Shown: positions 4,501 through 55,616 of the stretch, piece by piece
How the letters are laid out: the number at the start of each line of letters is the position of its first letter
How positions within the stretch are numbered: the first letter of the stretch is position 1
NCBI GenBank assembly: GCA_000004985.1
Contig: GG738931.1
DNA from: Naegleria gruberi
Lineage: Eukaryota
DNA: 64,000 bases
Reading direction: 5' to 3' (one strand)
Notes under the pieces: generated by a model
Seen by the model: only the letters and a program-made list of their open reading frames with translations
The model's database searches: none
Told to the model about the DNA's origin: nothing
Program-made: the position numbers and the translations under genes

Positions 4501-5672
4501 GAAGATGGAACAGCATTAGAATACAAGGTTTTCGAGTTGATTATTCCACCACTCACATTTCTAATTCTTCCATTATCAGTATCTGAAATTAGAAACATGT
4601 TATTTGCTTCATCATGAAACAAATCACTTGGATTATTCAAAAGAGCTGATGTGGCACTTCCTCCATCTCCAGAAAATCCCTTAGTCATTGCTGTTCCTGC
4701 AATTGTGTAAATCTTATCACCAGTTGCATATCTCAATAAGTGATTTCCTGATTCGACAATGTATAAAGTAGTTTCGGCAGCATTTAAGAAAATTCCAGTT
4801 GGAACGCTCATTTTCTGATCTGAAATCTTGAGACCATCTGCTGTGTAACCATCTCCCTTACTACCAGCAAAATTCTTTGGTTTTCCGTCTTTAATTTGCA
4901 TCAAGGAAACCATATTCTTCATGTCATCTGACAAGTAAACATCACCGGTCGAGGAAGGGAATACTCTCGAGCTATAACCAACAGGATCTGTTCCAGTACC
5001 TGTGCAACTGTATGGAACTGTAAATGTTTTGGTAATTTGACTTGAGGAAATGTTCAATTCTCTAATGATACAATTTCCATAATCGAGAAAGGTCATAGTT
5101 GTGGCAGAAGTGAATCTGATACTTCTTGGAATGCTCAATCTCATGGATAGAGCATTTCCTGTGTTTCCATCGAAACCTTGAACTCCAGTTCCCGCCACGG
5201 TTGAAACAATTCCTGAACTGGCCGAAATCTTTCTAATACAATGGTTCCAATCGTCAGTAAAGAAAACATCACCATTTGATGAGTCGACAATGACACTAGT
5301 TGGTCCATTGATCTTGGCATTGACTGCTAAAGACCCATCTCCTGAATAACCTCTTCTCAATTCTGATCCACCAATCAAATCTACGAGTTGACCAGAAGCT
5401 GTTATTTTGCTAACGGCATTTCTCTCCAAATCGGTAAAGAAAACCTCCTGGGTAGAAGGAACCCAGAAGAGACCCACAGGTTTACCAACTCTTGTTCTCC
5501 ATTGAGCTAAATAGTTGGCACATTGAGATGAGTCACCTGCCAAAGTCTCTACTAAATAATTACTTGTTCTGAGCCATCTATTGGGTGGAAATTGTTGAGC
5601 TCTTGTTTGTTGGTGAGATATCAAGAGGCACATTACCCAAATAATTGCCAAAAACAAGTTGTTATTGTTCAT
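1584..5672 (-). CDS. large type-I membrane protein with NHL-type repeats followed by about 13 tandem EGF-like Cys-rich modules, one C-terminal TM helix and a short basic tail
   Basis: The ORF 1584..5936 is trimmed to the first ATG at about 5670-5672 (MNNNNLFLAIIWVMCLLISHQQTRAQQ, a signal peptide). The upstream in-frame stretch is AT-rich 5'UTR read-through. NHL-like repeats follow (YSGDG..A.N.P..V..D..GDVFFTD..NH.IRKI). Then come repeated modules of the form CFG..FN.S.VCSGHG.C...N.C.C..GY.G..C. The C-terminus has a TM helix (IIAVLVSVIASSLIFFVVGIVIGVSVALL) followed by YKKRKKEKD. Confidence 0.8.
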   Translation of the reverse strand: MNNNNLFLAIIWVMCLLISHQQTRAQQFPPNRWLRTSNYLVETLAGDSSQCANYLAQWRTRVGKPVGLFWVPSTQEVFFTDLERNAVSKITASGQLVDLIGGSELRRGYSGDGSLAVNAKINGPTSVIVDSSNGDVFFTDDWNHCIRKISASSGIVSTVAGTGVQGFDGNTGNALSMRLSIPRSIRFTSATTMTFLDYGNCIIRELNISSSQITKTFTVPYSCTGTGTDPVGYSSRVFPSSTGDVYLSDDMKNMVSLMQIKDGKPKNFAGSKGDGYTADGLKISDQKMSVPTGIFLNAAETTLYIVESGNHLLRYATGDKIYTIAGTAMTKGFSGDGGSATSALLNNPSDLFHDEANNMFLISDTDNGRIRNVSGGIINSKTLYSNAVPSSLVRFSSSLNSFTFGMDGSLYISDYSTIRSGNSNFDIYAGTGLVGYSGNYTLRNSTLFNSPNKLAFNSRNELFIADSNNHRIRKVVGGMTFDYAGNGNPTGSDNDGGSALNAVLANPTSLFVLPNDDLLIASTGKISKVFANNGTIVTLYRSMGVIISDLTVNLNNLDIYFSEKSTHTVKKLDSNGVLTIIAGTGSNLGSVSDGGLAINATIDSPNSILLTQNGELIISEQSRIRRVTLNDNLISTITLYDNSTQTNTSFINQAKSLYLNANGDILYAEGCTIKRIKQILQPEYPISCFGYLANNSLVCSGNGQCNVTDQCSCNEGFIGSMCETRNHSCFGIHFNSSLVCSSHGDCISKNNCSCYNGFYGDNCESTIVIPLNYTCFGVNFNDSSVCSGFGNCIATDNCTCSVGYSGSNCQNAPIPPLTCFGVLANESTSVCSGHGQCVSKDNCTCATGYYGSSCEFIVQPPPITCFGILFNDSTVCSGHGSCNSSNQCLCSEGYTGSSCQNPPPQPTPPITCYGLLFNDSVVCSGHGNCLSSNNCSCETGYSGSDCSSFKCFDIVPSNSAVCSGHGSCSAPNTCSCSNGYSGNDCSQFECFGTLFTSSLVCSGHGVCNSTNQCLCSEGFIGNECQTKNHTCYGMLFNDSNVCSQHGECMSKDNCQCQDGYVGANCEIPVCYSLLSSDLNVCSGNGKCPAPDSCLCNEGWFGKNCSNRVCVSVVDVINGNVTCSTTTQSDDVELIKRAVTDLTELDAEELHFHKYSSVSVKFPSDISSLSTSQDLTIIATVQNKTSAKQKIGAINSDVVSVSFLKDDGSKFQVSNLANPIIINFANISIEADSNESIRNFTCMFFDANINSWSDTGVSTLFSFIQRVSNNQFQVSIQCLTTHLTTFSVIDINIKKQNSPSTTIQPKQDQTSNDSTVIIAVLVSVIASSLIFFVVGIVIGVSVALLYKKRKKEKDYSASSSTGV
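2340..3700 (-). repeat. tandem array of about 100-120 bp coding repeat units (EGF-like modules) inside the NHL-EGF gene
   Basis: Periodic recurrence of tgttctggacatgg.../ccatgtccagaaca... motifs, which encode CSGHG. The recurrence is visible in the DNA and in the repeated protein modules. Confidence 0.5.
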
Positions 5673-6026
5673 ACTGTTGTTGTTGTGTTGTTTTTTCTTA
5701 ATAATTGTAGTTGTATGGAGCTGAAATGAATAGGGTCTATAAATCAAAAATTGGTGGACCTCAGATCTTCCCATTCCTTCATGGTTAGACCAGTACTTTC
5801 TAAAATGGATTTTTGTATATTCGATCTCCAAAAATATAAGTCCATGGCAAAATGAAAAGTTGTAATGAAATTGGCGGGTTGAAATCAAAAAATACTTGTT
5901 TAGAATATCATACAATTGTAGACAATTAAAATCCAAGTTTAGTTAGTCTTCATCTATCTTACAATATAAAGGTGACAATGTCTAGAAGTGGAAACCATAA
6001 ATGTTATATTTAGTGTTAATCAGTAA

Positions 6027-25234: not shown

Positions 25235-27766
25235 TTATAATTCGAACTGTGATGATTGAGAAGGAAGATTTCCCTGTTGTTTTCTATTCAATACAAACAT
25301 TACAATAGACACAATCAATGCAATCATACACAAACACATTAGAAGGAAGAAAGTTGGAACTAGAATTGCAATTAAAATGACTGATAAATCTCCAGTACTG
25401 ACCGTTGAAGAAGCTGAACGATTTGTGAGAGCTGATCTCTGGACAGCAACAGAGGAAATGTAGGAAGTAGAACAGATTATTTGATTAGAGGTGGAAAAGG
25501 ATGAGGTAACTAATTGATTCGTCCAACTATTCGAATCATAATCAAATCTCAAACAAGTATAATTATAATTGGAAACATCAAAAATCAAACCACTGAAATA
25601 ATACTTGATTTGCTTAGATAACTGAATATGAATCAACTCTGATTTGGCATTCTGAATCATGAAATTAGTAACATTCGAATAAAATTGCTCATTCGACCGA
25701 GTTGAAGAAGTGCTGAAATAAAAACTATTGGACGATAAATTCAATCCAAAAGTAGAACCATCCTCAACGTAAATCAATTGCTTTTCATTTGCCAAACTCA
25801 GAACCAAATATTCCCAAGTATTTGATGACATCTTTACAAAGGTTTCAGTTTCAGAGCCAGTGGAACATGTCAATTCGTTGCTGTCACTGTCTAAATCCAT
25901 CAAACATTCAATAATGGAACAATCGAGATATTTCCAATGAGTATTGCATGAACAAGTGTTATTGGAAATGCAAGTTCCATGATTACTGCAATTACTCAAT
26001 GCATCACATGAAATTGTTGAACATTGAGAATTACCTTTCCAACCAGAATTACATTCGCATGAATTATTCGAAACACAACTTCCATGACCTGAACATTCGT
26101 TTAAGGCATCACATGAAATTTGAGAACATTGAGAGTTTCCTCTCCATCCTGAATGACAGCTACAAGTATTATTCGAAACGCAATCACCATGATGAGAACA
26201 ATTATTAAGAATTTCACATGTGAAAAGTGAACATTGAGAATTTCCCTTCCAACCAACTTGACATTCACACGTATTATTCGAAACACAATTTCCATTACCA
26301 TAACAATCATTCAAAGCATCACAGCTAATCACAGAACATTGAGCATTTCCTTTGAATCCACTTTCACATGAACATGAATTATTCGAAACACATTGACCAT
26401 GACCTGAACAATTGTTTAAAGTTTCACAAGTAAAGTTTGAGCATTCAGAATTACCAAGCCAACCATTGTTGCATTCGCATGTATTATTCGAAACACAATG
26501 TCCATTTCCATTACATTCGTTTAAAACTTCACAAGAAAAGGAAGAACAAGAAGAATCTGATTTCCAACCTGATTCGCATGAACAGGTATTATTTGAAATG
26601 CATGAACCGTGACCTGAACAGTGATTCAAAGAATCGCAACTAATAGCTGAACAATGAGAATTACCTTTCCAGCCAGAATTACATTCGCATGAATTATTCG
26701 AAACACATTGTCCATGATTATTGCAATGATTTAAAGCTTCACAACTAAATAAGGAACAATTAGAATCTCCTTTCCATCCTGAATAACACATACAAGTATT
26801 ATTCGAAACGCATGAGCCATGACCATTACAATTATCAACTAGCTCACAAGACGGAGTTTTACAATTTTCACCATGCCAATAATCATCACATTGACATGTA
26901 TTATTCGAAACACATTGTCCATGTCCAGAACAATAATTCACGCCATCACATGAAAATTGAGAACAGTTGACATTTCCTTTCCATCCAGATTGACAGGAAC
27001 AAGTATTTGCTGATATACAACTTCCATGATCTAAACTGCAATTATCTCTGGAAATGCAATTAAAAAATTGACACTTGTTTCCATGATAACCATCAGAACA
27101 GACACAATTATTTGGAGATGGACATGAGCCATGACCAGAACAAACTAAACTAGAGGTGGACAATACATTATAACATAATGGAGTGGTGCAGTTTAGTCCT
27201 TCCCATAAATAGGTATTCGAAAGTCCAGCTGTCCAAGTGTGGGTTTCCCAACAAACTTCCTCTTGAGCTCCGTAGAGAACTAAATTACCATCATTTTGTA
27301 AAACTAATCTAAAAGGAGCTGTTCCAGAACCACAACTACTTGCTAATCCTAACAGATTAGTACTCCCACCATTTCCTTTTATGGACAAGGAACCATCTGT
27401 GGCCAAAGCCAAGACATATGGTCCACTTCCACCTGTAGCAGTATAGGATTTCTTCTCCTCAGCTGTAATAGAATTCATAAGAGACAAGACACCACTCGAT
27501 TTCATGGCCAAAGTAAAGGTTCCATCTGTGGACACGAGAGATTCTCCCTGAACTAAAGTTTGTCTTCTGTCAGCTGTCCAAGCAGAGTAGATGGAGTTTT
27601 GATAGACACTATCGACACAATAGCAAGTACCATAGTTACAGACTCCATGACTACCACACGAATCTTGTTCAGTTGCGAGAATGCCATTACAAGTGGACAC
27701 AGCCAAAGTTGTGCTTGCCAATGAAAGCAAGTTGACCAGAAGAAGAAGAGAAATTAAAAGCTTCAT
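25235..27766 (-). CDS. type-I membrane protein with a signal peptide, a bulb-type (mannose-binding) lectin-like domain, about 14 tandem EGF-like modules and a C-terminal TM
   Basis: Signal peptide MKLLISLLLLVNLLSLASTTLA. B-lectin-like motif ...VLQNDGNLVLYGAQ.... Repeated module CSGHGQCVSNNTC.C.SGWKGN..CS..SC..LN.C..HG. TM helix LSVILIAILVPTFFLLMCLCMIALIVSIVMFVL. Confidence 0.8.
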   Translation of the reverse strand: MKLLISLLLLVNLLSLASTTLAVSTCNGILATEQDSCGSHGVCNYGTCYCVDSVYQNSIYSAWTADRRQTLVQGESLVSTDGTFTLAMKSSGVLSLMNSITAEEKKSYTATGGSGPYVLALATDGSLSIKGNGGSTNLLGLASSCGSGTAPFRLVLQNDGNLVLYGAQEEVCWETHTWTAGLSNTYLWEGLNCTTPLCYNVLSTSSLVCSGHGSCPSPNNCVCSDGYHGNKCQFFNCISRDNCSLDHGSCISANTCSCQSGWKGNVNCSQFSCDGVNYCSGHGQCVSNNTCQCDDYWHGENCKTPSCELVDNCNGHGSCVSNNTCMCYSGWKGDSNCSLFSCEALNHCNNHGQCVSNNSCECNSGWKGNSHCSAISCDSLNHCSGHGSCISNNTCSCESGWKSDSSCSSFSCEVLNECNGNGHCVSNNTCECNNGWLGNSECSNFTCETLNNCSGHGQCVSNNSCSCESGFKGNAQCSVISCDALNDCYGNGNCVSNNTCECQVGWKGNSQCSLFTCEILNNCSHHGDCVSNNTCSCHSGWRGNSQCSQISCDALNECSGHGSCVSNNSCECNSGWKGNSQCSTISCDALSNCSNHGTCISNNTCSCNTHWKYLDCSIIECLMDLDSDSNELTCSTGSETETFVKMSSNTWEYLVLSLANEKQLIYVEDGSTFGLNLSSNSFYFSTSSTRSNEQFYSNVTNFMIQNAKSELIHIQLSKQIKYYFSGLIFDVSNYNYTCLRFDYDSNSWTNQLVTSSFSTSNQIICSTSYISSVAVQRSALTNRSASSTVSTGDLSVILIAILVPTFFLLMCLCMIALIVSIVMFVLNRKQQGNLPSQSSQFEL
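25950..27150 (-). repeat. tandem array of about 100-105 bp coding repeat units (EGF-like modules) inside the lectin-EGF gene
   Basis: Recurring ...gaaacacaa/gtccatgacctgaaca... units, visible as near-identical protein modules (CVSNN[ST]C[ES]C.SGWKGNSQCS). Confidence 0.5.
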
Positions 27767-48592: not shown

Positions 48593-49870
48593 TTATTGGT
48601 CGGAGGCTGTGCTTGTTGGTTGAACATTGGCAGCAGCTTGTTGACCAGAGTTTGGATAGGACCCTTGTTGTGGATAGTAGTTATATGGATAGGTTGAGGC
48701 GCCACCTTGAGGATAACCTTGTTGTGAAGGATAGCCATAACCTTGTTGTTGTGGGTATCCGTATCCTTGTTGTGAAGGATAACCTTGTTGTGGGTATTGT
48801 TGTTGTTGAGGATAGCTACCACCTTGGGAAGGATATTGCTGACCATAGTTATATGGATAGGTAGAACCTTGTTGTGGATATTGTTGTTGTTGGTTATAGT
48901 ATGGATAAGAACCTCCTTGTTGAGTTGGATATTGTTGTTGTTGTGCAGGATAGGTAGAACCTTGAGGATAACCTTGTTGAGTTGGATATTGTTGTTGTTG
49001 GGTTGGATACTGTTGTTGTGCAGGATAGTTTGAACCTTGTGGGTATCCTTGTTGCTGAGTGGCTGGATATTGAGTTGGATATTGTTGTTGTGAAGGGTAA
49101 CTTGAACTTGGATAGTATTGTTGTTGTGGATATTGTTGTTGATTTGGATACTGTTGTTGTTGTTGACCATATTGAGGAGCAGACAAGAATTGTTGTTGAC
49201 TTGGTTGACCTGGTTGACCTGGTTGTTGACCTTGTTGTGGCTGTTGACCTGGTTGACCTGGTTGTCCTCCTTGTTGTTGTTGGCCATTGTTATTATTGTT
49301 ATTTGATTCTTGGTAATTTCCTCTAAAGCTAGCAAGGGCTGCTTCAATTTGTGAGGATGTGGATTGATACTTCTTCCAATCCTTAGCTTGCAAATCAGTG
49401 ATAAGTTCAGTGGAAAGTGGAACAAGTTTCTCCTTAACAATCTTGAAATCTTCTGGTTGACCTTCAAAACCACCCTTTTCTTCATTTTGCAATTGCATAA
49501 TATTGGATTGAATGGTTCTGGAGGCGCTGTCAATCAAACTACAATCTTTGAATCCATTATCACCCCAACAAAAGCTTCCAAAACTATTAACCATATTCAA
49601 TTGCATTTTAATGTTACTGACTGCACTGGATACTCTTGATTTTGGAGTATTTTGTTGTTGTTGTTGTTGTTGGCCTTGACCTTGACCTTGACCTTGTTGT
49701 GGTTGTTGCCCTGGCATTTGTTGTTGAGGATAGCCAGCTCCTGGATATTGACCAGGTTGCTGTTGTTGGAGTGGATTTGTTTGGAATGGTCTTCCATTTA
49801 CGACTTGGTATTGTGCCACTACTAGTAATGAAATATTTAGTAGCAAAACTGTTAGAACTATTAGTTTCAT
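48593..49870 (-). CDS. secreted Q/Y/P/G-rich repetitive (prion-like, adhesive-type) protein
   Basis: Signal peptide [20 protein letters not shown]. Then poly-Q/GQ tracts and about 15 imperfect repeats of QQQYP(T/S)QQG(Y/S)YPQ. The opposite-frame N-rich ORF 48520..49533 and the other small ORFs in this region are shadows of the repeat. Confidence 0.65.
49640..49700. repeat. coding microsatellite: (TTG)n followed by (GACCTT)n on the plus strand, which reads as (CAA)n/(GGTCAA)n on the coding strand
   Basis: Seen directly: ttgttgttgttgttgttgttggccttgaccttgaccttgaccttg. Confidence 0.8.
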
Positions 49871-49998: not shown

Positions 49999-52900
49999 CT
50001 AATGGCATGTCTTGCTATTTACTAAAAAAGTTGCTTGTTTTGCTAGATAGCTTTGGTCAAGGTTCTTGAAAGGAATTAGTGCTTTACATTCACTATCTTC
50101 TAATTTGGAAAGAGCCTGAATAACCTTATGTACATGGGAATTTGTGAGTCTGTCACCACTTCCTGGGAATTCATAATCTGATTTGAAGAGAGTTGCCAAT
50201 CTCAATAACATTTCATTTTCCTCTTTCGTATTTCTCTCGTTCAGTATTTGCTTCCATTTCTGATAAGTTACATTTTGCATTGGCTCCTTTTTCAATAATT
50301 TAGCTTCTGTTGTTGCTGCTATGGAGAGTAAATCGTCAATGTGAATGACGAATTTATCTAGATTTGCCAACTCGAATATGAAATAGTTTGGATTTTCGTG
50401 AAGATCTGTTACGAATGCATTCTCATTCTGTGTCAACTGTACAATGACTCTTGAAATAATATCTACTGGGACAATGTTTAGAGTTCTGTTCGTCTTTGGG
50501 AAGCAATTCATTTCAAAACATCCCATGACTAATCTATTGACCCAATCTATTAAATTAGAAACTCCATTGACAGTATCACTTCCAATCATACCAGGTCTGA
50601 AAATGGCTCCTGGATATCCCAATAATCTTGCTTGTTGAATATATTGTTCGGCAACAAACTTGGTGCTACTGTATCCATTAGCTCTTTCAATAATTGGTTT
50701 GAGTTGCCTCATGACTTGATCCATGTGATTGTTAATTAAATCCGTAATATCTTTCTTATTGCTAATTCCAGATGTACTGGTTGGTATTCCAAAGAGTGAT
50801 AATCCAGATTGCAATACTCCAACTGTAGAGACGAAAACTATTGGGGCTAAAGTGGAATCTCCACTTTGAATATTCAATTTAGATGATAAGCAAGCCAATT
50901 TCAATAATGAAAGAGTAGATCCAGTATTTGAGGAAAATAATTGAGGATATGACATGACAGAGTTGACATACGCTCCGTTGTGATAAATAATATCAATATT
51001 TTCTGCCAGTTTCTTGAATTCTTCCTCAGTGAGTCCTAAATTATCATCTCCTAAATTACCCTTGACAACTGAAATTCTCTTTTCATACTTGTCATTCCAA
51101 AGTTTGAATTCCACAAGGTTTTCTTTCACTCTCATGAAAACGTCATCTTGATGATTCTTTTCTCTGACTATACAATAGACTTTGACATTTTCTTCAGCTT
51201 TCTCTAATGCTTCCAATAAATCTCTCAATATAAATGCTCCTAGGAATCCTGTTGAACCTGTCAATAGAATACCCTTCTTCAAATCGGCTATCTTTTTAAA
51301 TTGCGTATTTCCTCTTGATGTGAGGTCTATAATGTCATTCAACACATCTTCAGGAAGGAGAATATCCTTCTTCCAATCATGGGATGAATTGACTGTGGCA
51401 ACATCATCATGTTGGTTTTTGGTGACAAAATCTGAAACTCTACTCACTACGCTATCCACATTTCTGTCAGTTTGAGAAAATATCAGCGAGAGTGGAACAT
51501 CAATGTTATACTTTTGCTTCATAATACCAGAAAATTTAACAGCGTGAAGACTGTCAATAATTTTCATATTTCCATCAGATTCAGCTGAACCTGTTTGAGA
51601 ATTTAACAATAATTCACGAATCAAATCTTCATCCAATTTCCTCTTGTTAATAGACTCTAGGTGCTCATAAAGAGCTTCCAACTCTTCCTTATACTTCATT
51701 TCGCATCCAAATCTCTTAACTTTCATTGAAGAGGTAAGGAGATCGTTCTTCTCACTAAATGACTCAAATTCAATAATAAAGTCCTTTGGCACTTCGTATG
51801 GAAGAAGAGAGCAGTTCACAGATACTTTCTCAATTTCCTCACACAAAACCTTTTTAACCTTTTCATTGGTTTTCAGCAAGTCCTTCTCTGAATCACTCAA
51901 GAGCTCTTCACTTGATGAGTTGATGAGCCCTTCCTTGATTGCAAATTGTTTCAAAACCGTTTGATTAGGTACAATTACACCTACAAGGTAGCTTTTCGAC
52001 ACATTTCCATAAATGAAAGCTTGGAAGATGAATTTTGAGGTAGTCAGAGCATCTTCAATCTTTGCAGGTGCAATAAATTCTCCTTGACTCAATTTGAAAA
52101 TATTCTTGAGTCTGTCAATAATTCTAATGTGTCTTGGACCTAGCTCCTCAACAATATCATTAGTATGCAACCATCCTTCCTCATCCAAAGCGTTTTTCGT
52201 AAGTTCTTCATTCTTGTAATATCCAATGAACATGGTTTTTGTTTTAACACAAAGTTCTCCTCTTGGATAAGGTTTGTCATTTGTGAAATAGTTCATGTCA
52301 GGTACGTCAACCAACTTGTACTCAACAGAGCTATGAAGTCTGTTATCATTCATGATACCTCCTGCTTCTGACATTCCAAAACCATCTGAAACGAAGCAAT
52401 TAAAACATTTTCCAAGAAATTCTCTAACTTGTGGGCTTGAAGAGGCTCCTCCAATAATTATTGATTGTAAGCGACCACCCAACATGTTTCTAAAATCTTT
52501 CATTACTCTTTCTTCAAGTTCTCTCTCCGTTTTAGGTCTATCCTCATTTTGATTCGAAATACCTGAAAGCCAACTTGTCTTTTCCAATTCGTACACTTTT
52601 TTATACTCATCATAGAGTACATTATAAAGTCTTGGTGTTGAGGCAATGACAGTAGGTTTGACCTTTTGAATATCCTCAAAGATGTGAACAAAATCTCTGG
52701 TAAATATTCCCACTCTAGCACCATCACACATGGCCAAAAGGGTGTGTTTTCTGTCACTCATGTGAGCAAGAGGACAGAATGAAAATTGTACTTTTGGATT
52801 TTCAGCTCTGAAACCATGCATTTCTCTTCTCAGAGATTTGTCACTAACCATTATGCCCTTCGGCTGACCTGTCGATCCACTCGTGAAAACTAACGATAGA

Positions 52901-53973
52901 AGATCCTCATCTTTTTCTAGTCTATTCAAAATAAAGTCCTGGTGTTCCACATCAATCCACATCTTATTTGGATTATACTTGTTTTTTGGAGTGACGAGGA
53001 TAGTCTCGTGATTTTCAAAGTGTTTTGGATATCTTTTTTTCTTAGGTTTGTTCTTTTCGTTCAAGTATTCACATAAGATTGATTTTCCCTTGTCAATAAT
53101 CTCGTTCATTGGCAGAATTTCAATTTCTTGTTTACCACTGTTTGTTGTGAATTTACTCTTGGATTTTCCTTCATTATCATCCATTACTACAATATATTTT
53201 ACAAAGTCCAATTGTTTTGTAATGCTGATGAAAAAATCGAGCATTTCTAAAGTACAAACGACAACCTGACTATCGGTCAGTTCAACAATATGTTTCGTCT
53301 CATCAAAAGTTTGGGCAAAGTGAATAGGAGCAGCCACAAATCCCTTGAAGAAACAAGCATAATCACACAAGTACCAATATAAATTATTCTTTCCACAAAT
53401 GGATACAAATTGTCTCTTATTTTCCTCCCTCAAAGGTTTTAAAATTTCATCCAGTCCAACAGCAATACAACAAACCAAGTGGAATACTTGTTCATATCGA
53501 AGCCAATGATAAGGTCCGTCATCCTCTTTCAATATTCCAAAGCAAGGATTCATTGAATTTTCAATAAAACTCCGAAACAGTGTACTATTGACACGATCGG
53601 CCTCTGATCTTTGTTTGATTTCATGATAGTGATATTTTGTTGGTACAAAATATTCAAGATCCTCACAAAATGTTTCCAACCAGAGTTCTCTTTCCTTTTC
53701 TTCTGGTGTTTTTTCCTCATTGTCAACTTGTTGATGATTAGGAGATGCATTCTTCCTTCTCTTCTTACATTTATCCCAACACCAATCGTAACACTTCTCG
53801 CACAAATCAGTTCCCTTGTCATTGGTATTGGTATATCGGATTGTGTTTTCAATAACACCCAAACACATATTACAAATCCATCGATATGAAACCGATGTGA
53901 CGGTGAAGTTGGTTGGTTTTTCCTCCACTTGCAGTTTTCCACGAGAGAATAGGGAGGTGATCTTGTTGAGCAT
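49999..53973 (-). CDS. tri-domain enzyme: an ACSL-like adenylation (AMP-binding) domain, a carrier-protein (thiolation) domain and a C-terminal NAD(P)-dependent thioester reductase. It has an N-terminal Cys-rich zinc-finger-like segment.
   Basis: AMP-binding signature LVFTSGSTGQPKGIMV. The ACSL-like core is GELCVKTKTMFIGYYKNEELTKNALDEEGWLHTNDIVEE. After the A-domain end (VPKDFIIEFESFSE...KVKRF) comes a carrier-like segment with DSL (ESDGNMKIIDSLHAVKFSGIM). Then a reductase Rossmann motif ILLTGSTGFLGAFILRDLL and YSSTKFVAEQY (YxxxK). The N-terminus has C..C...C..C (CNMCLGV...CEKCYDWCWDKC). It is a single 1324-aa ORF. Confidence 0.85.
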   Translation of the reverse strand: MLNKITSLFSRGKLQVEEKPTNFTVTSVSYRWICNMCLGVIENTIRYTNTNDKGTDLCEKCYDWCWDKCKKRRKNASPNHQQVDNEEKTPEEKERELWLETFCEDLEYFVPTKYHYHEIKQRSEADRVNSTLFRSFIENSMNPCFGILKEDDGPYHWLRYEQVFHLVCCIAVGLDEILKPLREENKRQFVSICGKNNLYWYLCDYACFFKGFVAAPIHFAQTFDETKHIVELTDSQVVVCTLEMLDFFISITKQLDFVKYIVVMDDNEGKSKSKFTTNSGKQEIEILPMNEIIDKGKSILCEYLNEKNKPKKKRYPKHFENHETILVTPKNKYNPNKMWIDVEHQDFILNRLEKDEDLLSLVFTSGSTGQPKGIMVSDKSLRREMHGFRAENPKVQFSFCPLAHMSDRKHTLLAMCDGARVGIFTRDFVHIFEDIQKVKPTVIASTPRLYNVLYDEYKKVYELEKTSWLSGISNQNEDRPKTERELEERVMKDFRNMLGGRLQSIIIGGASSSPQVREFLGKCFNCFVSDGFGMSEAGGIMNDNRLHSSVEYKLVDVPDMNYFTNDKPYPRGELCVKTKTMFIGYYKNEELTKNALDEEGWLHTNDIVEELGPRHIRIIDRLKNIFKLSQGEFIAPAKIEDALTTSKFIFQAFIYGNVSKSYLVGVIVPNQTVLKQFAIKEGLINSSSEELLSDSEKDLLKTNEKVKKVLCEEIEKVSVNCSLLPYEVPKDFIIEFESFSEKNDLLTSSMKVKRFGCEMKYKEELEALYEHLESINKRKLDEDLIRELLLNSQTGSAESDGNMKIIDSLHAVKFSGIMKQKYNIDVPLSLIFSQTDRNVDSVVSRVSDFVTKNQHDDVATVNSSHDWKKDILLPEDVLNDIIDLTSRGNTQFKKIADLKKGILLTGSTGFLGAFILRDLLEALEKAEENVKVYCIVREKNHQDDVFMRVKENLVEFKLWNDKYEKRISVVKGNLGDDNLGLTEEEFKKLAENIDIIYHNGAYVNSVMSYPQLFSSNTGSTLSLLKLACLSSKLNIQSGDSTLAPIVFVSTVGVLQSGLSLFGIPTSTSGISNKKDITDLINNHMDQVMRQLKPIIERANGYSSTKFVAEQYIQQARLLGYPGAIFRPGMIGSDTVNGVSNLIDWVNRLVMGCFEMNCFPKTNRTLNIVPVDIISRVIVQLTQNENAFVTDLHENPNYFIFELANLDKFVIHIDDLLSIAATTEAKLLKKEPMQNVTYQKWKQILNERNTKEENEMLLRLATLFKSDYEFPGSGDRLTNSHVHKVIQALSKLEDSECKALIPFKNLDQSYLAKQATFLVNSKTCH

Positions 53974-54110: not shown

Positions 54111-55616
54111 TTAAAGAATCCACATGAAGAGAATCAAACAAGTGGAGACAACAAGTGTTGTCCAAAAGATACTCGACAATGAGTACAGATACTTCTTAAA
54201 GGTGTGATTCAATCCATATACTTCCTGAATGAATGTGCTTACGGTTGTGAGGGAGCCACAAAATCCAACCGAGAATGCATCAATCCAATAAACAGCAACA
54301 CCAGAGGTGAAACCTGAAACGTAGGCAGTACCTTGTAAAATAACCAAGATTAGAGAGCCAATGATATTGACAGCAAGTGTGAAAATTGGCATTTGGAATC
54401 TTTCAACAGCTTTAAATGTAATATTTAGCTTGCAAATTAAATATCTCAATAAACAGCCAAGAGGAGCAACGAGGAGAGTGAGGCAAAGACTTTGATCCAA
54501 TGATTTTGAAACGTTCATAGCACCAAGCAGAACAATAAAAACTGAAATGACAGCCATCAAAACTACAAACAAATCAACAGCCATTTTGATTGCTGTTCTT
54601 GATTTCCATTTGGCATTTCTAATTTGTTGATACTCTTCCAGTAATTTTCTTTTGAATAATTCTCCATTACTCTCGGCAATATATTTAATTTCACCTTCTT
54701 CCAAGAGAATCTTTCTCTGATCCTCATTTGGAATTGGTTCTACAATATCTACATCTTCAGCCAATCCAGAAGCAACACTCGAAGATGCAATTGAATTAAC
54801 ACTATTTTGACTTGTCATTGTGACCTGTTGTGGCGCCTTTGCATTTCCAAATTTCTTCCTCAAAACAGGAATCACAAAACTCAAAATTGCATTTGTAATA
54901 TCCTTCGCAATTACAAATGCAAAATAACAAGTTGTAAAACCAACTACTTGCTTACTCACAAACGACAAGACATCTCCCTTCATTAAACTAATTGCAGCAT
55001 TCACTTGCCAACTTGAAAATGTTGTAATGCATCCACACATCCCAGTCGATAGTCCAGTATATATCCTCTTCTCAAACGACAATGTTCCATGAAAAACTCT
55101 ATGCAGAAACAACTTGACCATTCTCTTCTTTGATTCCTCCATTCCTTCCAAAGATATTGCTGATGAATTATTACTCTTCACCATAATAGGAGTATTACTT
55201 TCACTACTACTACCATTATTATTATTATTAGTAACCTTATTCTTTTCCAATTCAACTAACAAGGCCTTCTCCTTCTCCTTCAACTCTTCCAAAGGCTTTT
55301 TAATAAAGTGCAAATGAATGACCATTAAAACTCCCATGATGAAGCAACCCACAATATTTGCATACAAATCGGAGAAGAATAAATCATCAATGGATTGAAC
55401 GATATTACCATTGGATGATGTCGATGGATTCATAATATTGTTATTATTGCTATTATTATTGGAGGAGGAGAGGGAAGGCTTGTAGAGAGTGTCGGAGAGA
55501 AGAATTCGAATTAAAACACCAATCATGCAGAATACGATGAGGTAGGCAATGTAGAGTAAATGTTTGGATAAATTGATGGCAAATTTGAAATTTTCTTTGA
55601 GTAGTTGCATTGTCAT
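54111..55616 (-). CDS. fluoride export protein FEX (tandem CrcB/Fluc domains)
   Basis: Two CrcB-like halves, each with the signature G..G..TTFS.[FW]: GMCGCITTFSSWQVNA and GFCGSLTTVSTFIQEV. Eight to nine TM helices. There is a long N/S-rich and charged loop between the halves. Confidence 0.75.
   Translation of the reverse strand: MTMQLLKENFKFAINLSKHLLYIAYLIVFCMIGVLIRILLSDTLYKPSLSSSNNNSNNNNIMNPSTSSNGNIVQSIDDLFFSDLYANIVGCFIMGVLMVIHLHFIKKPLEELKEKEKALLVELEKNKVTNNNNNGSSSESNTPIMVKSNNSSAISLEGMEESKKRMVKLFLHRVFHGTLSFEKRIYTGLSTGMCGCITTFSSWQVNAAISLMKGDVLSFVSKQVVGFTTCYFAFVIAKDITNAILSFVIPVLRKKFGNAKAPQQVTMTSQNSVNSIASSSVASGLAEDVDIVEPIPNEDQRKILLEEGEIKYIAESNGELFKRKLLEEYQQIRNAKWKSRTAIKMAVDLFVVLMAVISVFIVLLGAMNVSKSLDQSLCLTLLVAPLGCLLRYLICKLNITFKAVERFQMPIFTLAVNIIGSLILVILQGTAYVSGFTSGVAVYWIDAFSVGFCGSLTTVSTFIQEVYGLNHTFKKYLYSLSSIFWTTLVVSTCLILFMWIL

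What the first reader, a model, noticed from the sequence alone, without database searches (positions are those of the whole stretch)
49999..53973. ACSL-type adenylation domain fused to a carrier domain and a thioester reductase (carboxylic-acid-reductase-like architecture) with an N-terminal Cys-rich finger
The adenylation core is of the long-chain acyl-CoA synthetase type (TSGSTGQPKG; GWLHTNDI). It is followed by a carrier-like DSL motif and a terminal reductase with the TGSTGFLG and YxxxK motifs. Bacterial CAR/FadD9 enzymes and fungal Lys2 and NRPS-like reductases share this layout. Such an enzyme would reduce an activated fatty or aromatic acid to an aldehyde or alcohol without forming a free CoA ester. 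The extra N-terminal CxxC...CxxC...C..C segment (ZZ-like) is not part of known CARs. The gene may belong to a lipid, wax or signalling-aldehyde pathway, which is of interest in an organism that makes polyketide morphogens.
Basis: partly seen in the sequence, partly recalled or inferred. Interest (0 to 1): 0.6.

Follow-up and report, generated by a model that had tools for sequence, protein, structure and literature searches.

The report
Protist carboxylic-acid reductase with degenerate ZZ finger
This Naegleria gruberi gene encodes an enzyme built like bacterial carboxylic-acid reductases (activate an acid, tether it, reduce it to an aldehyde) with a decayed ZZ zinc finger at its front. It belongs to a widespread protist family for which I found no published study.

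Summary
Window 49999-53973 (-) is one intact 1324-aa ORF, identical to a Naegleria gruberi "predicted protein", so the organism is not a dictyostelid.

The protein aligns continuously over adenylation, carrier and reductase domains with solved bacterial carboxylic acid reductases (CARs; E 1e-90). It carries every published CAR signature motif, including the carrier Ser808, Tyr1101 and Lys1105. The carrier falls below Pfam's threshold, but its Asp-Ser-Leu motif is invariant and its predicted fold is that of a carrier domain.

The N-terminal finger is a real but degenerate ZZ domain. Only four Cys (34, 37, 58, 61) are conserved, which is enough for one zinc site.

An exhaustive search shows the ZZ+CAR layout is typical of a whole eukaryotic clade: Heterolobosea, Dictyostelium and other Amoebozoa, Anaeramoeba and Capsaspora. 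That clade separates from a ZZ-less group containing the one named bacterial CAR in 100 of 100 bootstraps. All named members are annotated hypothetical.

The reductase has Gly1128 where bacterial CARs have the "on/off" Asp, as fungal CARs do, so release as alcohol is not excluded.

The substrate (probably aliphatic or fatty acids), the role of the ZZ and the PPTase partner remain untested. I rate it a new variant of a known kind, of moderate interest.

The parts
49999..53973 (-). Complete single-exon gene: 1324 codons plus stop. The order is ZZ-like finger, adenylation domain, carrier, thioester reductase.
   Evidence: ORF list. 100% identical to N. gruberi predicted protein P0001. The start is supported by the conserved N-terminus in orthologues and an A-rich context before the ATG.
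53788..53886 (-). Degenerate ZZ-type zinc finger, residues 30-62 (YRWICNMC...RY...DLCEKCY). Only C34, C37, C58 and C61 are retained, which is one predicted Zn site. The middle CxxC and the His pair of the second site are lost.
   Evidence: C34, C37, R46, Y47, D56, L57, C58, E59 and C61 are invariant in 5 orthologues. Pfam ZZ scores 15 bits, E 0.022, below cutoff. A ZZ HMM built from 36 six-Cys fingers of homologues scores 14.7 bits here and 24-35 bits in orthologues. The AF2 model has pLDDT 70-87 and its best local Foldseek matches are ZZ domains (p62, BIG, Ada2, KCMF1), but with non-significant E-values. The finger aligns to the D. discoideum ZZ in a full-length BLASTP. Translation checked.
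52216..53517 (-). Adenylation domain, large N-terminal subdomain (residues 153-586). It contains A3 TSGSTGQPK 364-372, His404 and A5 GMSEAG 533-538.
   Evidence: Pfam AMP-binding 1.6e-45. Alignment to CAR structures 5msp, 5mso and 5msc. Motif positions.
51661..52098 (-). Adenylation domain hinge and C-terminal subdomain (residues 626-771; the flanking A7/A8 motif D606-x14-R621 lies just upstream). It contains GEF 631-633 and the A10 Lys751.
   Evidence: Pfam AMP-binding_C_3, 21.6 bits against a cutoff of 20.8. Motifs. Aligned to CAR A10.
51394..51636 (-). Phosphopantetheine carrier (T/PCP) domain, about residues 780-860. The attachment Ser808 has its codon at 51550-51552 and sits in the motif I-I-D-S-L instead of G-G-D-S-L.
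   Evidence: Ser aligned to the CAR Ppant Ser. I806, D807, S808 and L809 are invariant in orthologues. D-S-L is invariant in 17 carriers including bacterial CARs. AF2 gives four-helix carrier topology with Ser808 at the start of helix II. Foldseek top hits are the CAR PCP-R didomain (prob 0.98-1.0) followed by ACPs and PCPs. Pfam PP-binding reaches only 15.9 bits. Translation checked.
50443..51264 (-). Thioester reductase (extended-SDR) Rossmann core, residues 904-1177. It contains TGSTGFLG 905-912, Thr1050, GYSSTKFVAE 1100-1109 (Tyr1101, Lys1105), FRPGMI with Gly1128, and GVSNLID 1137-1143.
   Evidence: Pfam NAD_binding_4 2e-54. TIGR01746 scores 196.5 bits. PDB R domains MxaA 3e-40 and a PKS R domain 3e-34. 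Motifs. Gly aligned to the CAR Asp.
50002..50442 (-). C-terminal subdomain of the reductase, residues 1178-1324.
   Evidence: Conserved with Naegleria and Willaertia orthologues to the end. Aligned to D. discoideum P0207 as far as residue 1292.

Best explanation
The gene encodes a four-part, self-contained carboxylate reductase of the CAR/FadD9 kind. It belongs to a eukaryote-specific clade in which the enzyme carries an N-terminal ZZ finger, and I found no published study of that clade. Inferred mechanism, step by step: (1) The ANL adenylation domain uses ATP to form an acyl-adenylate from a free carboxylic acid. The substrate is most probably aliphatic or fatty, because the domain resembles ACSL, FadD and CAR enzymes rather than NRPS amino-acid activators. 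(2) The acyl group is passed to the thiol of a phosphopantetheine arm on Ser808 of the carrier domain, so no free CoA ester is made. (3) The carrier swings to the C-terminal SDR-type reductase. There NADPH, with Tyr1101, Lys1105 and Thr1050, reduces the thioester and releases an aldehyde. Because Gly1128 replaces the bacterial 'on/off' Asp (as in fungal CARs), some further reduction to the alcohol is possible. (4) The N-terminal finger is a ZZ domain that has lost its second zinc site. It most likely keeps a structural, docking or regulatory role rather than a catalytic one. Shown here: the domain order, the catalytic motifs, homology, clade membership and the degenerate state of the ZZ. Inferred: the chemistry, the cofactors, the substrate class, phosphopantetheinylation and the role of the ZZ.
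For: The ORF is intact and identical to the public N. gruberi protein. The domains are AMP-binding, AMP-binding_C_3 and NAD_binding_4. NCBIfam 'carboxylic acid reductase' is by far the best family, at 464.6 bits over residues 353-1154. Solved CARs 5msp, 5mso and 5msc match at E 1e-90 to 1e-87 in one continuous A-PCP-R alignment. BLASTP against the named Mycobacteroides CAR gives 29% identity over residues 189-1161, E 2e-111. All CAR signature motifs of PMC5826065 are present, including the bacterial-type GEF and A10 Lys751. Carrier domain: D-S-L is invariant in 17 carriers, the predicted topology is that of a carrier, and the fold matches are to carriers. Clade: 2589 homologues score E<=1e-30. 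The best non-heterolobosean hits are amoebozoan, namely Balamuthia, Rhizamoeba, Cavostelium and Protostelium. 36 of the top ~150 hits carry a six-Cys ZZ upstream of the A domain and 14 carry a four-Cys version. ZZ passes Pfam's cutoff in Anaeramoeba and P. violaceum. ZZ-bearing members occur in Dictyostelia, Stenamoeba, Clastostelium, Anaeramoeba and Capsaspora. An NJ tree of the core with 100 bootstraps separates the ZZ-less group containing the bacterial CAR in 100/100 replicates and recovers Heterolobosea as monophyletic in 100/100, nested among ZZ-bearers. The finger is homologous to those ZZs. Gene GC (0.35-0.36) equals that of the window and the neighbours are ordinary eukaryotic genes, so this is a resident gene.
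Against: No biochemistry exists for any member of the eukaryotic clade, and I found no paper on it. The protein is far below NCBIfam's CAR equivalog cutoff (464.6 vs 1300) and just below the TIGR01746 cutoff (196.5 vs 213.35). Pfam PP-binding is below threshold, and a profile of the heterolobosean carriers alone gives only weak PCP hits, E 0.02-0.3. The usual Gly-Gly before Asp-Ser is replaced by x-Ile, which might affect PPTase recognition. No PPTase gene lies in the 64-kb window, and the rest of the genome could not be searched. The Asp proposed to restrict bacterial CARs to two-electron reduction is absent. The substrate class is inferred from family resemblance only. The tree is a distance tree, and many members are unnamed metagenomic proteins.
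Confidence: 0.75

Rival explanations
1. The enzyme forms alcohols. The same A-T-R machinery operates, but the reductase carries out a four-electron reduction and releases a primary (fatty) alcohol, for example for wax or ether lipids.
For: Gly1128 occupies the position of the bacterial CAR 'on/off' Asp (NiCAR D984), and no member of the eukaryote group has Asp there; RPG is found in 33. PMC5826065 records Gly at this site in fungal CARs. PMC10168641 shows that NcCAR, which has Gly, reduces aldehydes to alcohols, octanal at over 40% of the rate for the acid. The R domain also matches MxaA (E 3e-40), which from my own knowledge is a four-electron reductase.
Against: Lys2 and many NRPS R domains that share the RPG motif stop at the aldehyde (own knowledge). 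PMC10168641 also finds aldehyde reduction by the Asp-bearing MmCAR, so this residue is not a clean predictor. No product data exist.
Confidence: 0.25
2. The protein is an ordinary long-chain acyl-CoA synthetase with an unrelated or functionally uncoupled C-terminal SDR. The carrier-like linker would not be phosphopantetheinylated, and the reductase, if active, would act on free acyl-CoA as FAR enzymes do.
For: Pfam PP-binding is below its cutoff (15.9 vs 20.8). A profile of the heterolobosean carriers alone finds PCPs only weakly. GG-DSL is changed to xI-DSL. Precomputed Pfam also misses PP-binding in several Dictyostelium orthologues. Automated annotation calls the Balamuthia homologue 'ACSL7'.
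Against: The carrier region aligns residue for residue with the CAR PCP, including the Ppant Ser. I806, D807, S808, L809, A811, V812 and F814 are invariant across orthologues that are only 41-58% identical overall. D-S-L is invariant in all 17 carriers compared. The predicted fold and its matches are carrier proteins. PP-binding passes Pfam's cutoff in all 8 other clade members scanned.
Confidence: 0.07
3. The gene is a recent horizontal acquisition of an actinobacterial CAR/FadD9 by Naegleria, or is bacterial contamination of the assembly.
For: The nearest characterised and structurally solved relatives are actinobacterial. The A domain has the bacterial-type GEF motif and A10 Lys.
Against: Orthologues exist in N. 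lovaniensis, a second Naegleria assembly and Willaertia. A metagenomic relative, P0005, has a spliceosomal-type interruption in its R domain. The gene nests among eukaryotic ZZ-bearing proteins, and the split from the group holding the named bacterial CAR is recovered in 100/100 bootstraps. It carries a ZZ remnant, and none of the 25 proteins in that ZZ-less group has one. Its GC equals that of the surrounding window and its neighbours are eukaryotic genes. An ancient bacterium-to-eukaryote transfer at the base of the clade is not excluded.
Confidence: 0.04
4. The protein is an alpha-aminoadipate reductase (Lys2-type) or another amino-acid-reducing NRPS-like enzyme.
For: TIGR03443 (L-aminoadipate-semialdehyde dehydrogenase) scores 198 bits, and the A-T-R layout is shared.
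Against: That match covers only the carrier and R part (residues 811-1185) and is far below the cutoff of 1030. The A domain matches fatty-acyl ligases and CARs, not NRPS amino-acid A domains; gramicidin synthase matches only the A3 motif, at E about 3e-5.
Confidence: 0.02

Closest known systems
Bacterial type I carboxylic acid reductases (CAR/FadD9; Nocardia iowensis, Mycobacterium marinum, Segniliparus rugosus; PDB 5MSP, 5MSO, 5MSC; NCBIfam NF041592)
   Same: The A-carrier-R order is the same, and there is one continuous alignment at E about 1e-90 and about 29-33% identity over the core. All signature motifs are shared, including His404, the GEF motif, the A10 Lys, the Ppant Ser, TGxxGxxG, GYxxxKxxxE and GxxNxxD.
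   Different: This protein has an N-terminal ZZ-derived finger of about 60 residues plus a linker, which is absent from all 25 proteins of the ZZ-less group that holds the named bacterial CAR. Gly1128 replaces the on/off Asp. The carrier reads xI-DSL instead of GG-DSL. The score is well below the curated equivalog cutoff. The protein falls in a separate clade with 100/100 bootstrap support.
Fungal CARs, types II-IV (for example Neurospora crassa NcCAR)
   Same: They are eukaryotic A-T-R carboxylate reductases. They share Gly at the position of the bacterial on/off Asp (G872 in NcCAR; PMC5826065) and the same essential His, Ser, Tyr and Lys residues.
   Different: Fungal CARs have an NRPS-like A domain, are about 20% identical to bacterial CARs, and have a hydroxylic residue in place of the A10 Lys (PMC5826065). 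The Naegleria protein has the bacterial-type A domain with Lys751 and GEF. No ZZ domain is reported for fungal CARs.
Uncharacterised eukaryotic ZZ-A-T-R proteins (D. discoideum P0207, Acytostelium, Tieghemostelium, P. violaceum, Stenamoeba, Clastostelium, Protostelium, Anaeramoeba ignava, Capsaspora owczarzaki)
   Same: The architecture is the same from end to end. BLASTP against D. discoideum P0207 spans residues 17-1292, with the finger aligned to its ZZ, E 1e-119. They fall in the same clade and share the RPG motif in the R domain.
   Different: Most members keep a full six-Cys, two-zinc ZZ, and Pfam ZZ passes its cutoff in Anaeramoeba and P. violaceum. Their carriers read GGDSL and pass Pfam PP-binding. 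The heterolobosean proteins have lost the second zinc site. A similar loss is seen in some other members, for example Protostelium P0020 and P0022, P0028 and P0044.
ZZ-type zinc fingers (Pfam PF00569; p62/SQSTM1, BIG, KCMF1, Ada2, CBP/p300)
   Same: The spacing and flanking residues match: CxxC...RY...(F/Y)DLCxxC. The best local structural matches are ZZ domains, with p62 ZZ at rmsd 1.4 A over 36 columns.
   Different: The middle CxxC and the C-terminal His/Cys pair, which form the second zinc site, are missing. The Pfam score is below cutoff and the Foldseek E-values are not significant. Here the finger is attached to a metabolic enzyme rather than to ubiquitin or chromatin machinery.
Long-chain acyl-CoA synthetases (ACSL/FadD)
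   Same: The A domain is of this general type. The best A-only NCBIfam hits are long-chain fatty-acid-CoA ligase and FadD11. Animal ACSL3 and ACSL4 are the next relatives of the clade after the CARs.
   Different: Those matches are far below the family cutoffs. The A domain here is covalently followed by a carrier and a reductase, which implies transfer to phosphopantetheine rather than to CoA.

Membership tests
Carboxylic acid reductase (CAR, EC 1.2.1.30) | Single polypeptide with adenylation, phosphopantetheine carrier and thioester reductase domains, in that order | tested here: met
   Pfam domains. One continuous alignment to CAR structures across all three domains.
Carboxylic acid reductase (CAR, EC 1.2.1.30) | CAR signature motifs and essential residues of Stolterfoht et al. 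2018: A3, His, G(S)TExG, D-x14-17-R, GE, Ppant Ser, TGxxGxxG, GYxxxKxxxE, GxxNxxD/E | tested here: met
   All are found at the expected positions: 364-372, H404, 533-538 (Ser in place of Thr), D606/R621, 631-632, S808, 905-912, 1100-1109 and 1137-1143. They are invariant in orthologues.
Carboxylic acid reductase (CAR, EC 1.2.1.30) | Score at or above the curated NCBIfam equivalog cutoff (NF041592, 1300 bits) | tested here: not met
   464.6 bits over residues 353-1154. It is the best-scoring family, but the protein is not an equivalog of the actinobacterial enzymes.
Carboxylic acid reductase (CAR, EC 1.2.1.30) | Reductase 'on/off' Asp of bacterial CARs (NiCAR D984), proposed to prevent over-reduction | tested here: not met
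   It aligns with Gly1128 (FRPGMI against FRCDMI or FRSDMI). Fungal CARs have the same Gly.
Carboxylic acid reductase (CAR, EC 1.2.1.30) | [quoted passage not shown] | not testable with these tools
   This needs biochemistry. No PPTase (PF01648) was found among window ORFs of 180 aa or more. The rest of the genome was not searchable.
Phosphopantetheine carrier domain (Pfam PF00550) | Match to PP-binding at the gathering threshold | tested here: not met
   15.9 bits against a cutoff of 20.8 on the isolated segment, and no hit on the full protein. All 8 other clade members scanned pass, at 27-47 bits.
Phosphopantetheine carrier domain (Pfam PF00550) | Conserved Ser in a D-S-L motif at the start of helix II of a four-helix bundle | tested here: met
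   Ser808 aligns to the CAR Ppant Ser. D-S-L is invariant in 17 sequences. In the AF2 model helix II starts at the Ser. Foldseek hits are the CAR PCP (prob up to 1.0) and ACPs/PCPs, though with E >= 0.12.
Thioester reductase domain (PF07993 / TIGR01746) | Family profile match together with the TGxxGxxG and YxxxK motifs | tested here: met
   PF07993 scores 184.9 bits against a cutoff of 20.1. TIGR01746 scores 196.5 bits, narrowly below its cutoff of 213.35. Both motifs are present. The R domains of MxaA, a PKS and an Mtb NRPS are matched.
ZZ-type zinc finger (PF00569) | Match to the Pfam ZZ model at the gathering threshold | tested here: not met
   15.0 bits, E 0.022, against a cutoff of 21.4.
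ZZ-type zinc finger (PF00569) | Eight Cys/His ligands forming two cross-braced zinc sites | tested here: not met
   Only C34, C37, C58 and C61 are conserved. The middle CxxC is replaced by T-N-T-N-D and there is no conserved His pair.
ZZ-type zinc finger (PF00569) | Descent from a bona fide ZZ domain at the same position of orthologous proteins | tested here: met
   An HMM of 36 six-Cys fingers from homologues scores 14.7 bits here (E 1e-6 for one target) and 24-35 bits in orthologues. The finger aligns with the D. discoideum ZZ in a full-length BLASTP. The ZZ of Anaeramoeba and P. violaceum homologues passes Pfam's cutoff.
Eukaryotic ZZ-A-T-R clade (unnamed) | Groups with ZZ-bearing eukaryotic A-T-R proteins, apart from the ZZ-less group that holds the named bacterial CAR | tested here: met
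   NJ tree of 97 cores over 747 columns. The split is recovered in 100/100 bootstraps, and Heterolobosea is monophyletic in 100/100 and nested within the ZZ-bearing group. This is a distance method only.
Lys2-type alpha-aminoadipate reductase (TIGR03443) | Full-length match above the cutoff, including an amino-acid-type A domain | tested here: not met
   198 bits against a cutoff of 1030, covering only residues 811-1185, which are the carrier and R domains.
Long-chain acyl-CoA synthetase (ACSL/FadD) | Stand-alone ANL enzyme scoring above the family cutoffs and forming acyl-CoA | tested here: not met
   The best match, NF004837, scores 126.7 bits against a cutoff of 476. The domain is fused to a carrier and a reductase. 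CoA-ligase activity itself is not testable here.

The most novel reading that the evidence does not exclude
The ZZ-A-T-R proteins may be an old, pan-eukaryotic fifth type of carboxylate reductase in which an N-terminal signalling or recruitment module controls where or when a reactive aldehyde or alcohol is made. That module is a ZZ finger in most members and a Ras-family GTPase in some relatives. ZZ domains elsewhere read protein N-termini. The family consensus keeps an acidic or polar residue after Cys1 (Asp or Asn in 26 of 36) and an Asp two residues before Cys5 (26 of 36). In p62, from my own recollection, the equivalent positions bind the N-terminal amine. So the finger could dock the enzyme onto a partner's N-terminus, or onto its own conserved N-terminal 'LFSG' motif for auto-regulation. 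Naegleria would then represent a lineage in which this control was reduced to a one-zinc scaffold.
Probability: 0.25. Interest if true: 0.65.

Novelty: new variant of a known kind. Interest (0 to 1): 0.45.

Why it matters
Characterised CARs fall into bacterial type I and fungal types II-IV, and they are valued biocatalysts for making aldehydes. This gene points to a further, protist-wide clade that combines three features:
- a bacterial-type adenylation domain;
- a reductase with the fungal-type Gly in place of the gating Asp;
- a ZZ finger not reported for any studied CAR.

All named members are annotated hypothetical or generically, and the literature searches found no paper on them. This holds even in the model organism Dictyostelium discoideum and in Capsaspora.

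If the clade is active, it would widen the CAR enzyme toolbox. It would also open the question of what free-acid reduction is for in amoebae. Candidates are fatty aldehyde or alcohol supply, detoxification, and signalling.

For Naegleria the gene adds an unexplored step to lipid and acid metabolism. It has orthologues in the genus, and from my own knowledge the genus includes the pathogen N. fowleri. The repeated loss of the second zinc site also gives a natural experiment on what the ZZ module contributes.

Tried and rejected
- **Pfam on the full protein.** It found neither PP-binding nor ZZ. On isolated segments both score below cutoff, so Pfam alone cannot settle those domains.
- **Heterolobosean-only carrier profile against the PDB.** It gave only weak PCP hits (E 0.02-0.3). 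The top of the list was spurious matches to artificial low-complexity linkers in RecA fusion constructs.
- **Foldseek on both AF2 models.** No E-value reached 0.001, because the domains are small and pLDDT is only 60-63 on average. I use the consistency of the hit lists, not their significance.
- **The first word-indexed homologue search.** It returned only 12 proteins and missed both the bacterial CARs and the amoebozoan clade. The exhaustive HMMER search was needed.
- **Gene neighbourhood.** All ORFs of 180 aa or more in the 64-kb window were scanned. There is no PPTase, lipid or aldehyde-handling gene, and no cluster. ORFs below 180 aa, which could include an AcpS-size protein, were not scanned.
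- **Literature.** No paper combines Naegleria with 'carboxylic acid reductase'. Three further searches on protist CARs, thioester reductases and ZZ fusions returned nothing relevant in the listed papers. A 2026 FAAL survey mentions FAALs in two Naegleria species, but I could not tie that statement to this gene.
- **Hypotheses considered and rejected.** Dictyostelid origin is ruled out by the 100% match to N. gruberi. Lys2-type and NRPS amino-acid activation are ruled out. Recent bacterial transfer or contamination is ruled out.
- **Not attempted.** A genome-wide PPTase search and expression data; the tools do not reach either.

Full report
**1. Observation**

Window 49999..53973 on the minus strand is one uninterrupted ORF of 1324 codons. 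It is 100% identical over its full length to a public "predicted protein" of Naegleria gruberi (P0001).

Gene GC (0.35-0.36) equals that of the rest of the window. The start codon is supported by a conserved N-terminus in orthologues and an A-rich context upstream of the ATG.

**2. Domain anatomy**

Pfam finds three domains:
- AMP-binding at residues 153-586 (1.6e-45);
- AMP-binding_C_3 at 626-771;
- NAD_binding_4 at 904-1177 (2e-54).

NCBIfam's best family by a wide margin is "carboxylic acid reductase" (NF041592), at 464.6 bits over residues 353-1154. That is well under the 1300-bit equivalog cutoff. The thioester-reductase model TIGR01746 scores 196.5 bits, just under its cutoff of 213.35.

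Against solved structures, the three bacterial CARs (5msp, 5mso, 5msc) match at E 1e-90 to 1e-87. Each match is a single alignment that runs through the adenylation domain, the carrier and the reductase. The query's I-I-D-S-L sits on the CAR G-G-D-S-L phosphopantetheine site. Stand-alone R domains also match: MxaA at 3e-40 and a PKS R domain at 3e-34. The reductase is therefore of the thioester-reductase kind, not a generic SDR.

A direct BLASTP against a named Mycobacteroides CAR gives 29% identity over residues 189-1161, E 2e-111.

**3. CAR signatures**

I used the signature list and alanine-scan results of Stolterfoht et al. 2018 (PMC5826065). All the listed motifs are present and invariant in orthologues:

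| Motif | Position in this protein |
|---|---|
| A3 | TSGSTGQPK, 364-372 |
| Essential His | H404 (FCPLAH) |
| A5 | GMSEAG, 533-538 |
| D-x14-R | D606 to R621 |
| GE, followed by the bacterial-type Phe | 631-633 |
| A10 Lys (kept in bacterial CARs, lost in fungal ones) | K751 |
| Phosphopantetheine Ser | S808 |
| Nucleotide-binding motif | TGSTGFLG, 905-912 |
| Catalytic Tyr and Lys | GYSSTKFVAE, 1100-1109 |
| GxxNxxD | GVSNLID, 1137-1143 |

There is one clear departure. The Asp proposed to switch the bacterial reductase on and off, and so prevent over-reduction (NiCAR D984, in FRCDMI or FRSDMI), aligns with Gly1128 (FRPGMI). The same paper notes a Gly at this site in fungal CARs. In my sample no member of the eukaryotic group has Asp there; RPG occurs in 33 of them. 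The group holding the named bacterial CAR is mixed. Daniel et al. 2022 (PMC10168641) show that NcCAR reduces aldehydes to alcohols appreciably, and that MmCAR does so too. The residue therefore hints at possible alcohol formation but does not prove it.

**4. The carrier domain**

Pfam PP-binding is below threshold, at 15.9 bits against a cutoff of 20.8. A profile of the five heterolobosean carriers alone finds PCPs only weakly, at E 0.02-0.3.

The positive evidence is stronger:
- I806, D807, S808, L809, A811, V812 and F814 are invariant among orthologues that are only 41-58% identical overall.
- D-S-L is invariant across 17 carriers from heteroloboseans, dictyostelids, Stenamoeba and bacterial CARs.
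- An AF2 model gives the canonical four-helix carrier topology, with Ser808 at the first turn of helix II.
- Its Foldseek hits are the CAR PCP-R didomain (probability 0.98-1.0), followed almost entirely by ACPs and PCPs, though the E-values are not significant.
- PP-binding passes Pfam's cutoff in all eight other clade members scanned.

I conclude that the carrier is real but divergent, with GG changed to xI before the Asp-Ser.

**5. The finger**

Among the N. gruberi protein and four relatives, only C34, C37, C58 and C61 are conserved, together with R46, Y47, D56, L57 and E59. The relatives are a second Naegleria assembly, N. lovaniensis, Willaertia magna and a metagenomic eukaryote-like contig whose R domain is split by an intron-like gap.

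Pfam ZZ scores 15 bits, below its cutoff. The AF2 model has pLDDT 70-87 over residues 30-110. Its best local structural matches are consistently ZZ domains: p62 at rmsd 1.4 A over 36 columns, then BIG, Ada2, KCMF1 and CBP. None of these is statistically significant.

**6. The wider family**

This is the decisive evidence on the finger. An exhaustive HMMER search with residues 125-1324 finds 2589 proteins at E<=1e-30. The best non-heterolobosean hits score above the solved bacterial CARs (up to 512 bits against about 300). They come from Amoebozoa: Balamuthia, Rhizamoeba, Cavostelium and Protostelium.

Of the top ~150 proteins, 36 carry a complete six-Cys ZZ finger upstream of the A domain, for example CDLCRKEIEEGQLRYHCSECENFDLCPEC. 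A further 14 carry a four-Cys version. Pfam ZZ passes its cutoff in the Anaeramoeba and Polysphondylium violaceum members.

Named ZZ-bearing members occur in:
- Dictyostelia, namely Acytostelium, Tieghemostelium, P. violaceum, D. dimigraforme, D. discoideum, D. citrinum and D. firmibasis;
- other Amoebozoa, namely Stenamoeba and Clastostelium;
- Anaeramoeba ignava;
- the filasterean Capsaspora owczarzaki.

Most of these are annotated "hypothetical" or "Carrier domain-containing protein"; the Anaeramoeba one carries a generic "fatty acid CoA synthetase family" label.

An HMM built from the 36 complete fingers recognises the heterolobosean fingers. It scores 35 bits on P0005, 29 on Willaertia, 24 on the other Naegleria proteins and 14.7 on N. 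gruberi. A full-length BLASTP against the D. discoideum orthologue aligns the Naegleria finger onto its ZZ and continues to the C-terminus, E 1e-119.

The finger is thus a ZZ domain that has lost its middle CxxC and its His pair. By the known cross-brace topology of ZZ domains (established knowledge), the first and third Cys pairs form zinc site 1, and that site is left intact here. Other lineages show similar partial loss.

**7. Phylogeny**

I built a neighbour-joining tree of the A3-to-R core from 97 sequences and 747 columns, with 100 bootstraps.
- The tree separates a group of 25 proteins, none with a ZZ, about 1150-1220 aa long, which contains the one named bacterial CAR. This split is recovered in 100/100 replicates. 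The other group contains every named eukaryote and every ZZ-bearer.
- The four heterolobosean proteins are monophyletic in 100/100 replicates and nested in the second group. Their sister is an unnamed metagenomic protein, at 65%.
- Within the second group, 35 of the 45 proteins with at least 270 residues upstream of A3 carry a ZZ. Most of those without one are N-terminally short.

Two caveats apply. This is a distance tree, and many members are unnamed metagenomic proteins.

Together with the native GC and the eukaryotic neighbours, this argues against recent bacterial transfer or contamination. An ancient transfer at the base of the clade remains possible.

**8. Context**

The neighbours are unrelated:
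- a two-CrcB-domain protein (54111-55616), probably a fluoride exporter;
- a Gln/Pro/Tyr-rich protein that looks secreted (48593-49870);
- an S41 peptidase, a subtilase, teneurin-like EGF/NHL proteins, an eEF1A-like GTPase and a Sel1-repeat protein.

No PPTase or lipid gene lies in the window, and a eukaryotic genome would not be expected to cluster such genes.

**9. Mechanism and verdict**

The best-supported explanation is an ATP- and NADPH-dependent carboxylate reductase that works like bacterial CARs. It would adenylate a free acid, load it as a thioester on phosphopantetheinyl-Ser808, and release it reductively as an aldehyde, with some possibility of alcohol.

The substrate is probably aliphatic or fatty. 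The evidence is that the A domain's next relatives are ACSL and FadD enzymes. The ZZ remnant is most likely a docking or regulatory scaffold. In support of that reading, some relatives carry a Ras-family GTPase at the N-terminus instead of a ZZ.

The domain order, motifs, homology and clade membership are shown here. The chemistry, substrate, cofactors, phosphopantetheinylation and the role of the ZZ are inferred.

The protein works like a CAR and meets the published CAR signature. It is not an equivalog of the actinobacterial enzymes, and it differs from them in the finger, the gating residue and the carrier motif. I classify it as a new variant of a known kind, of moderate interest. The gene itself is already in public databases, unannotated. 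What is new is the recognition of a protist-wide ZZ-CAR clade, for which the literature searches found no paper.

Noticed in passing
window 54111-55616 (-): The gene immediately upstream encodes a 501-aa membrane protein with two CrcB-like stretches (Pfam CRCB, 1.7e-26). That is the two-domain layout of eukaryotic FEX fluoride exporters. Only 137 bp separate it from the CAR start codon.
   Followed up: partly
window 48593-49870 (-): The downstream neighbour is a 425-aa protein with a signal-peptide-like N-terminus ([20 protein letters not shown]) and long Gln/Pro/Tyr/Gly-rich repeats (QQQYPxQQGYP...). It has no Pfam match and could be a secreted or wall/cyst-type structural protein.
   Followed up: no
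P0214 and P0231 (JGI metagenome proteins, relatives of the clade): In some A-T-R relatives the N-terminal module is a Ras/Roc-type small GTPase (Pfam Ras 1e-17 to 6e-19) instead of a ZZ finger. This suggests the enzyme has repeatedly acquired N-terminal regulatory or targeting modules.
   Followed up: partly
P0213 (Naegleria lovaniensis C9374_012428, 1375 aa): N. lovaniensis has a second, divergent A-carrier-R paralogue with about 545 residues before its AMP-binding match (residues 546-792) and the carrier motif GGIVDSL. Naegleria genomes may therefore encode more than one such reductase. I did not check whether N. gruberi has the counterpart.
   Followed up: no
window 53944-53973 (-), protein residues 1-10: The extreme N-terminus (M..K..SLFSG; F9 and S10 invariant) is conserved across Naegleria, Willaertia and the metagenomic relative, about 25 residues ahead of the finger. 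Since ZZ domains elsewhere bind protein N-termini, self-binding is conceivable, but this is pure speculation.
   Followed up: no
window 53749-53781 (-), protein residues 65-75: A basic patch directly follows the finger (KKRRK in N. gruberi, KKKKK or KKKK in the other Naegleria). It is absent in Willaertia and the metagenomic relative. It could be an NLS-like or membrane-binding element.
   Followed up: no
window 1584-5936 (-) and 25235-27766 (-): Two large proteins carry many teneurin-like EGF repeats, and one also has NHL repeats (Pfam EGF_2 about 1e-46, EGF_TEN up to 7e-50). This is metazoan-style extracellular architecture in a heterolobosean.
   Followed up: no
L001 3377-3435 (JGI metagenome contig Ga0606064_0994): The closest non-Naegleria, non-Willaertia relative (P0005) lies on a 34%-GC eukaryote-like contig. 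Its reductase domain is split by a gap of about 57 bp, and the reading frame resumes in the next ORF, which is consistent with a short intron. The public gene call is therefore truncated.
   Followed up: partly
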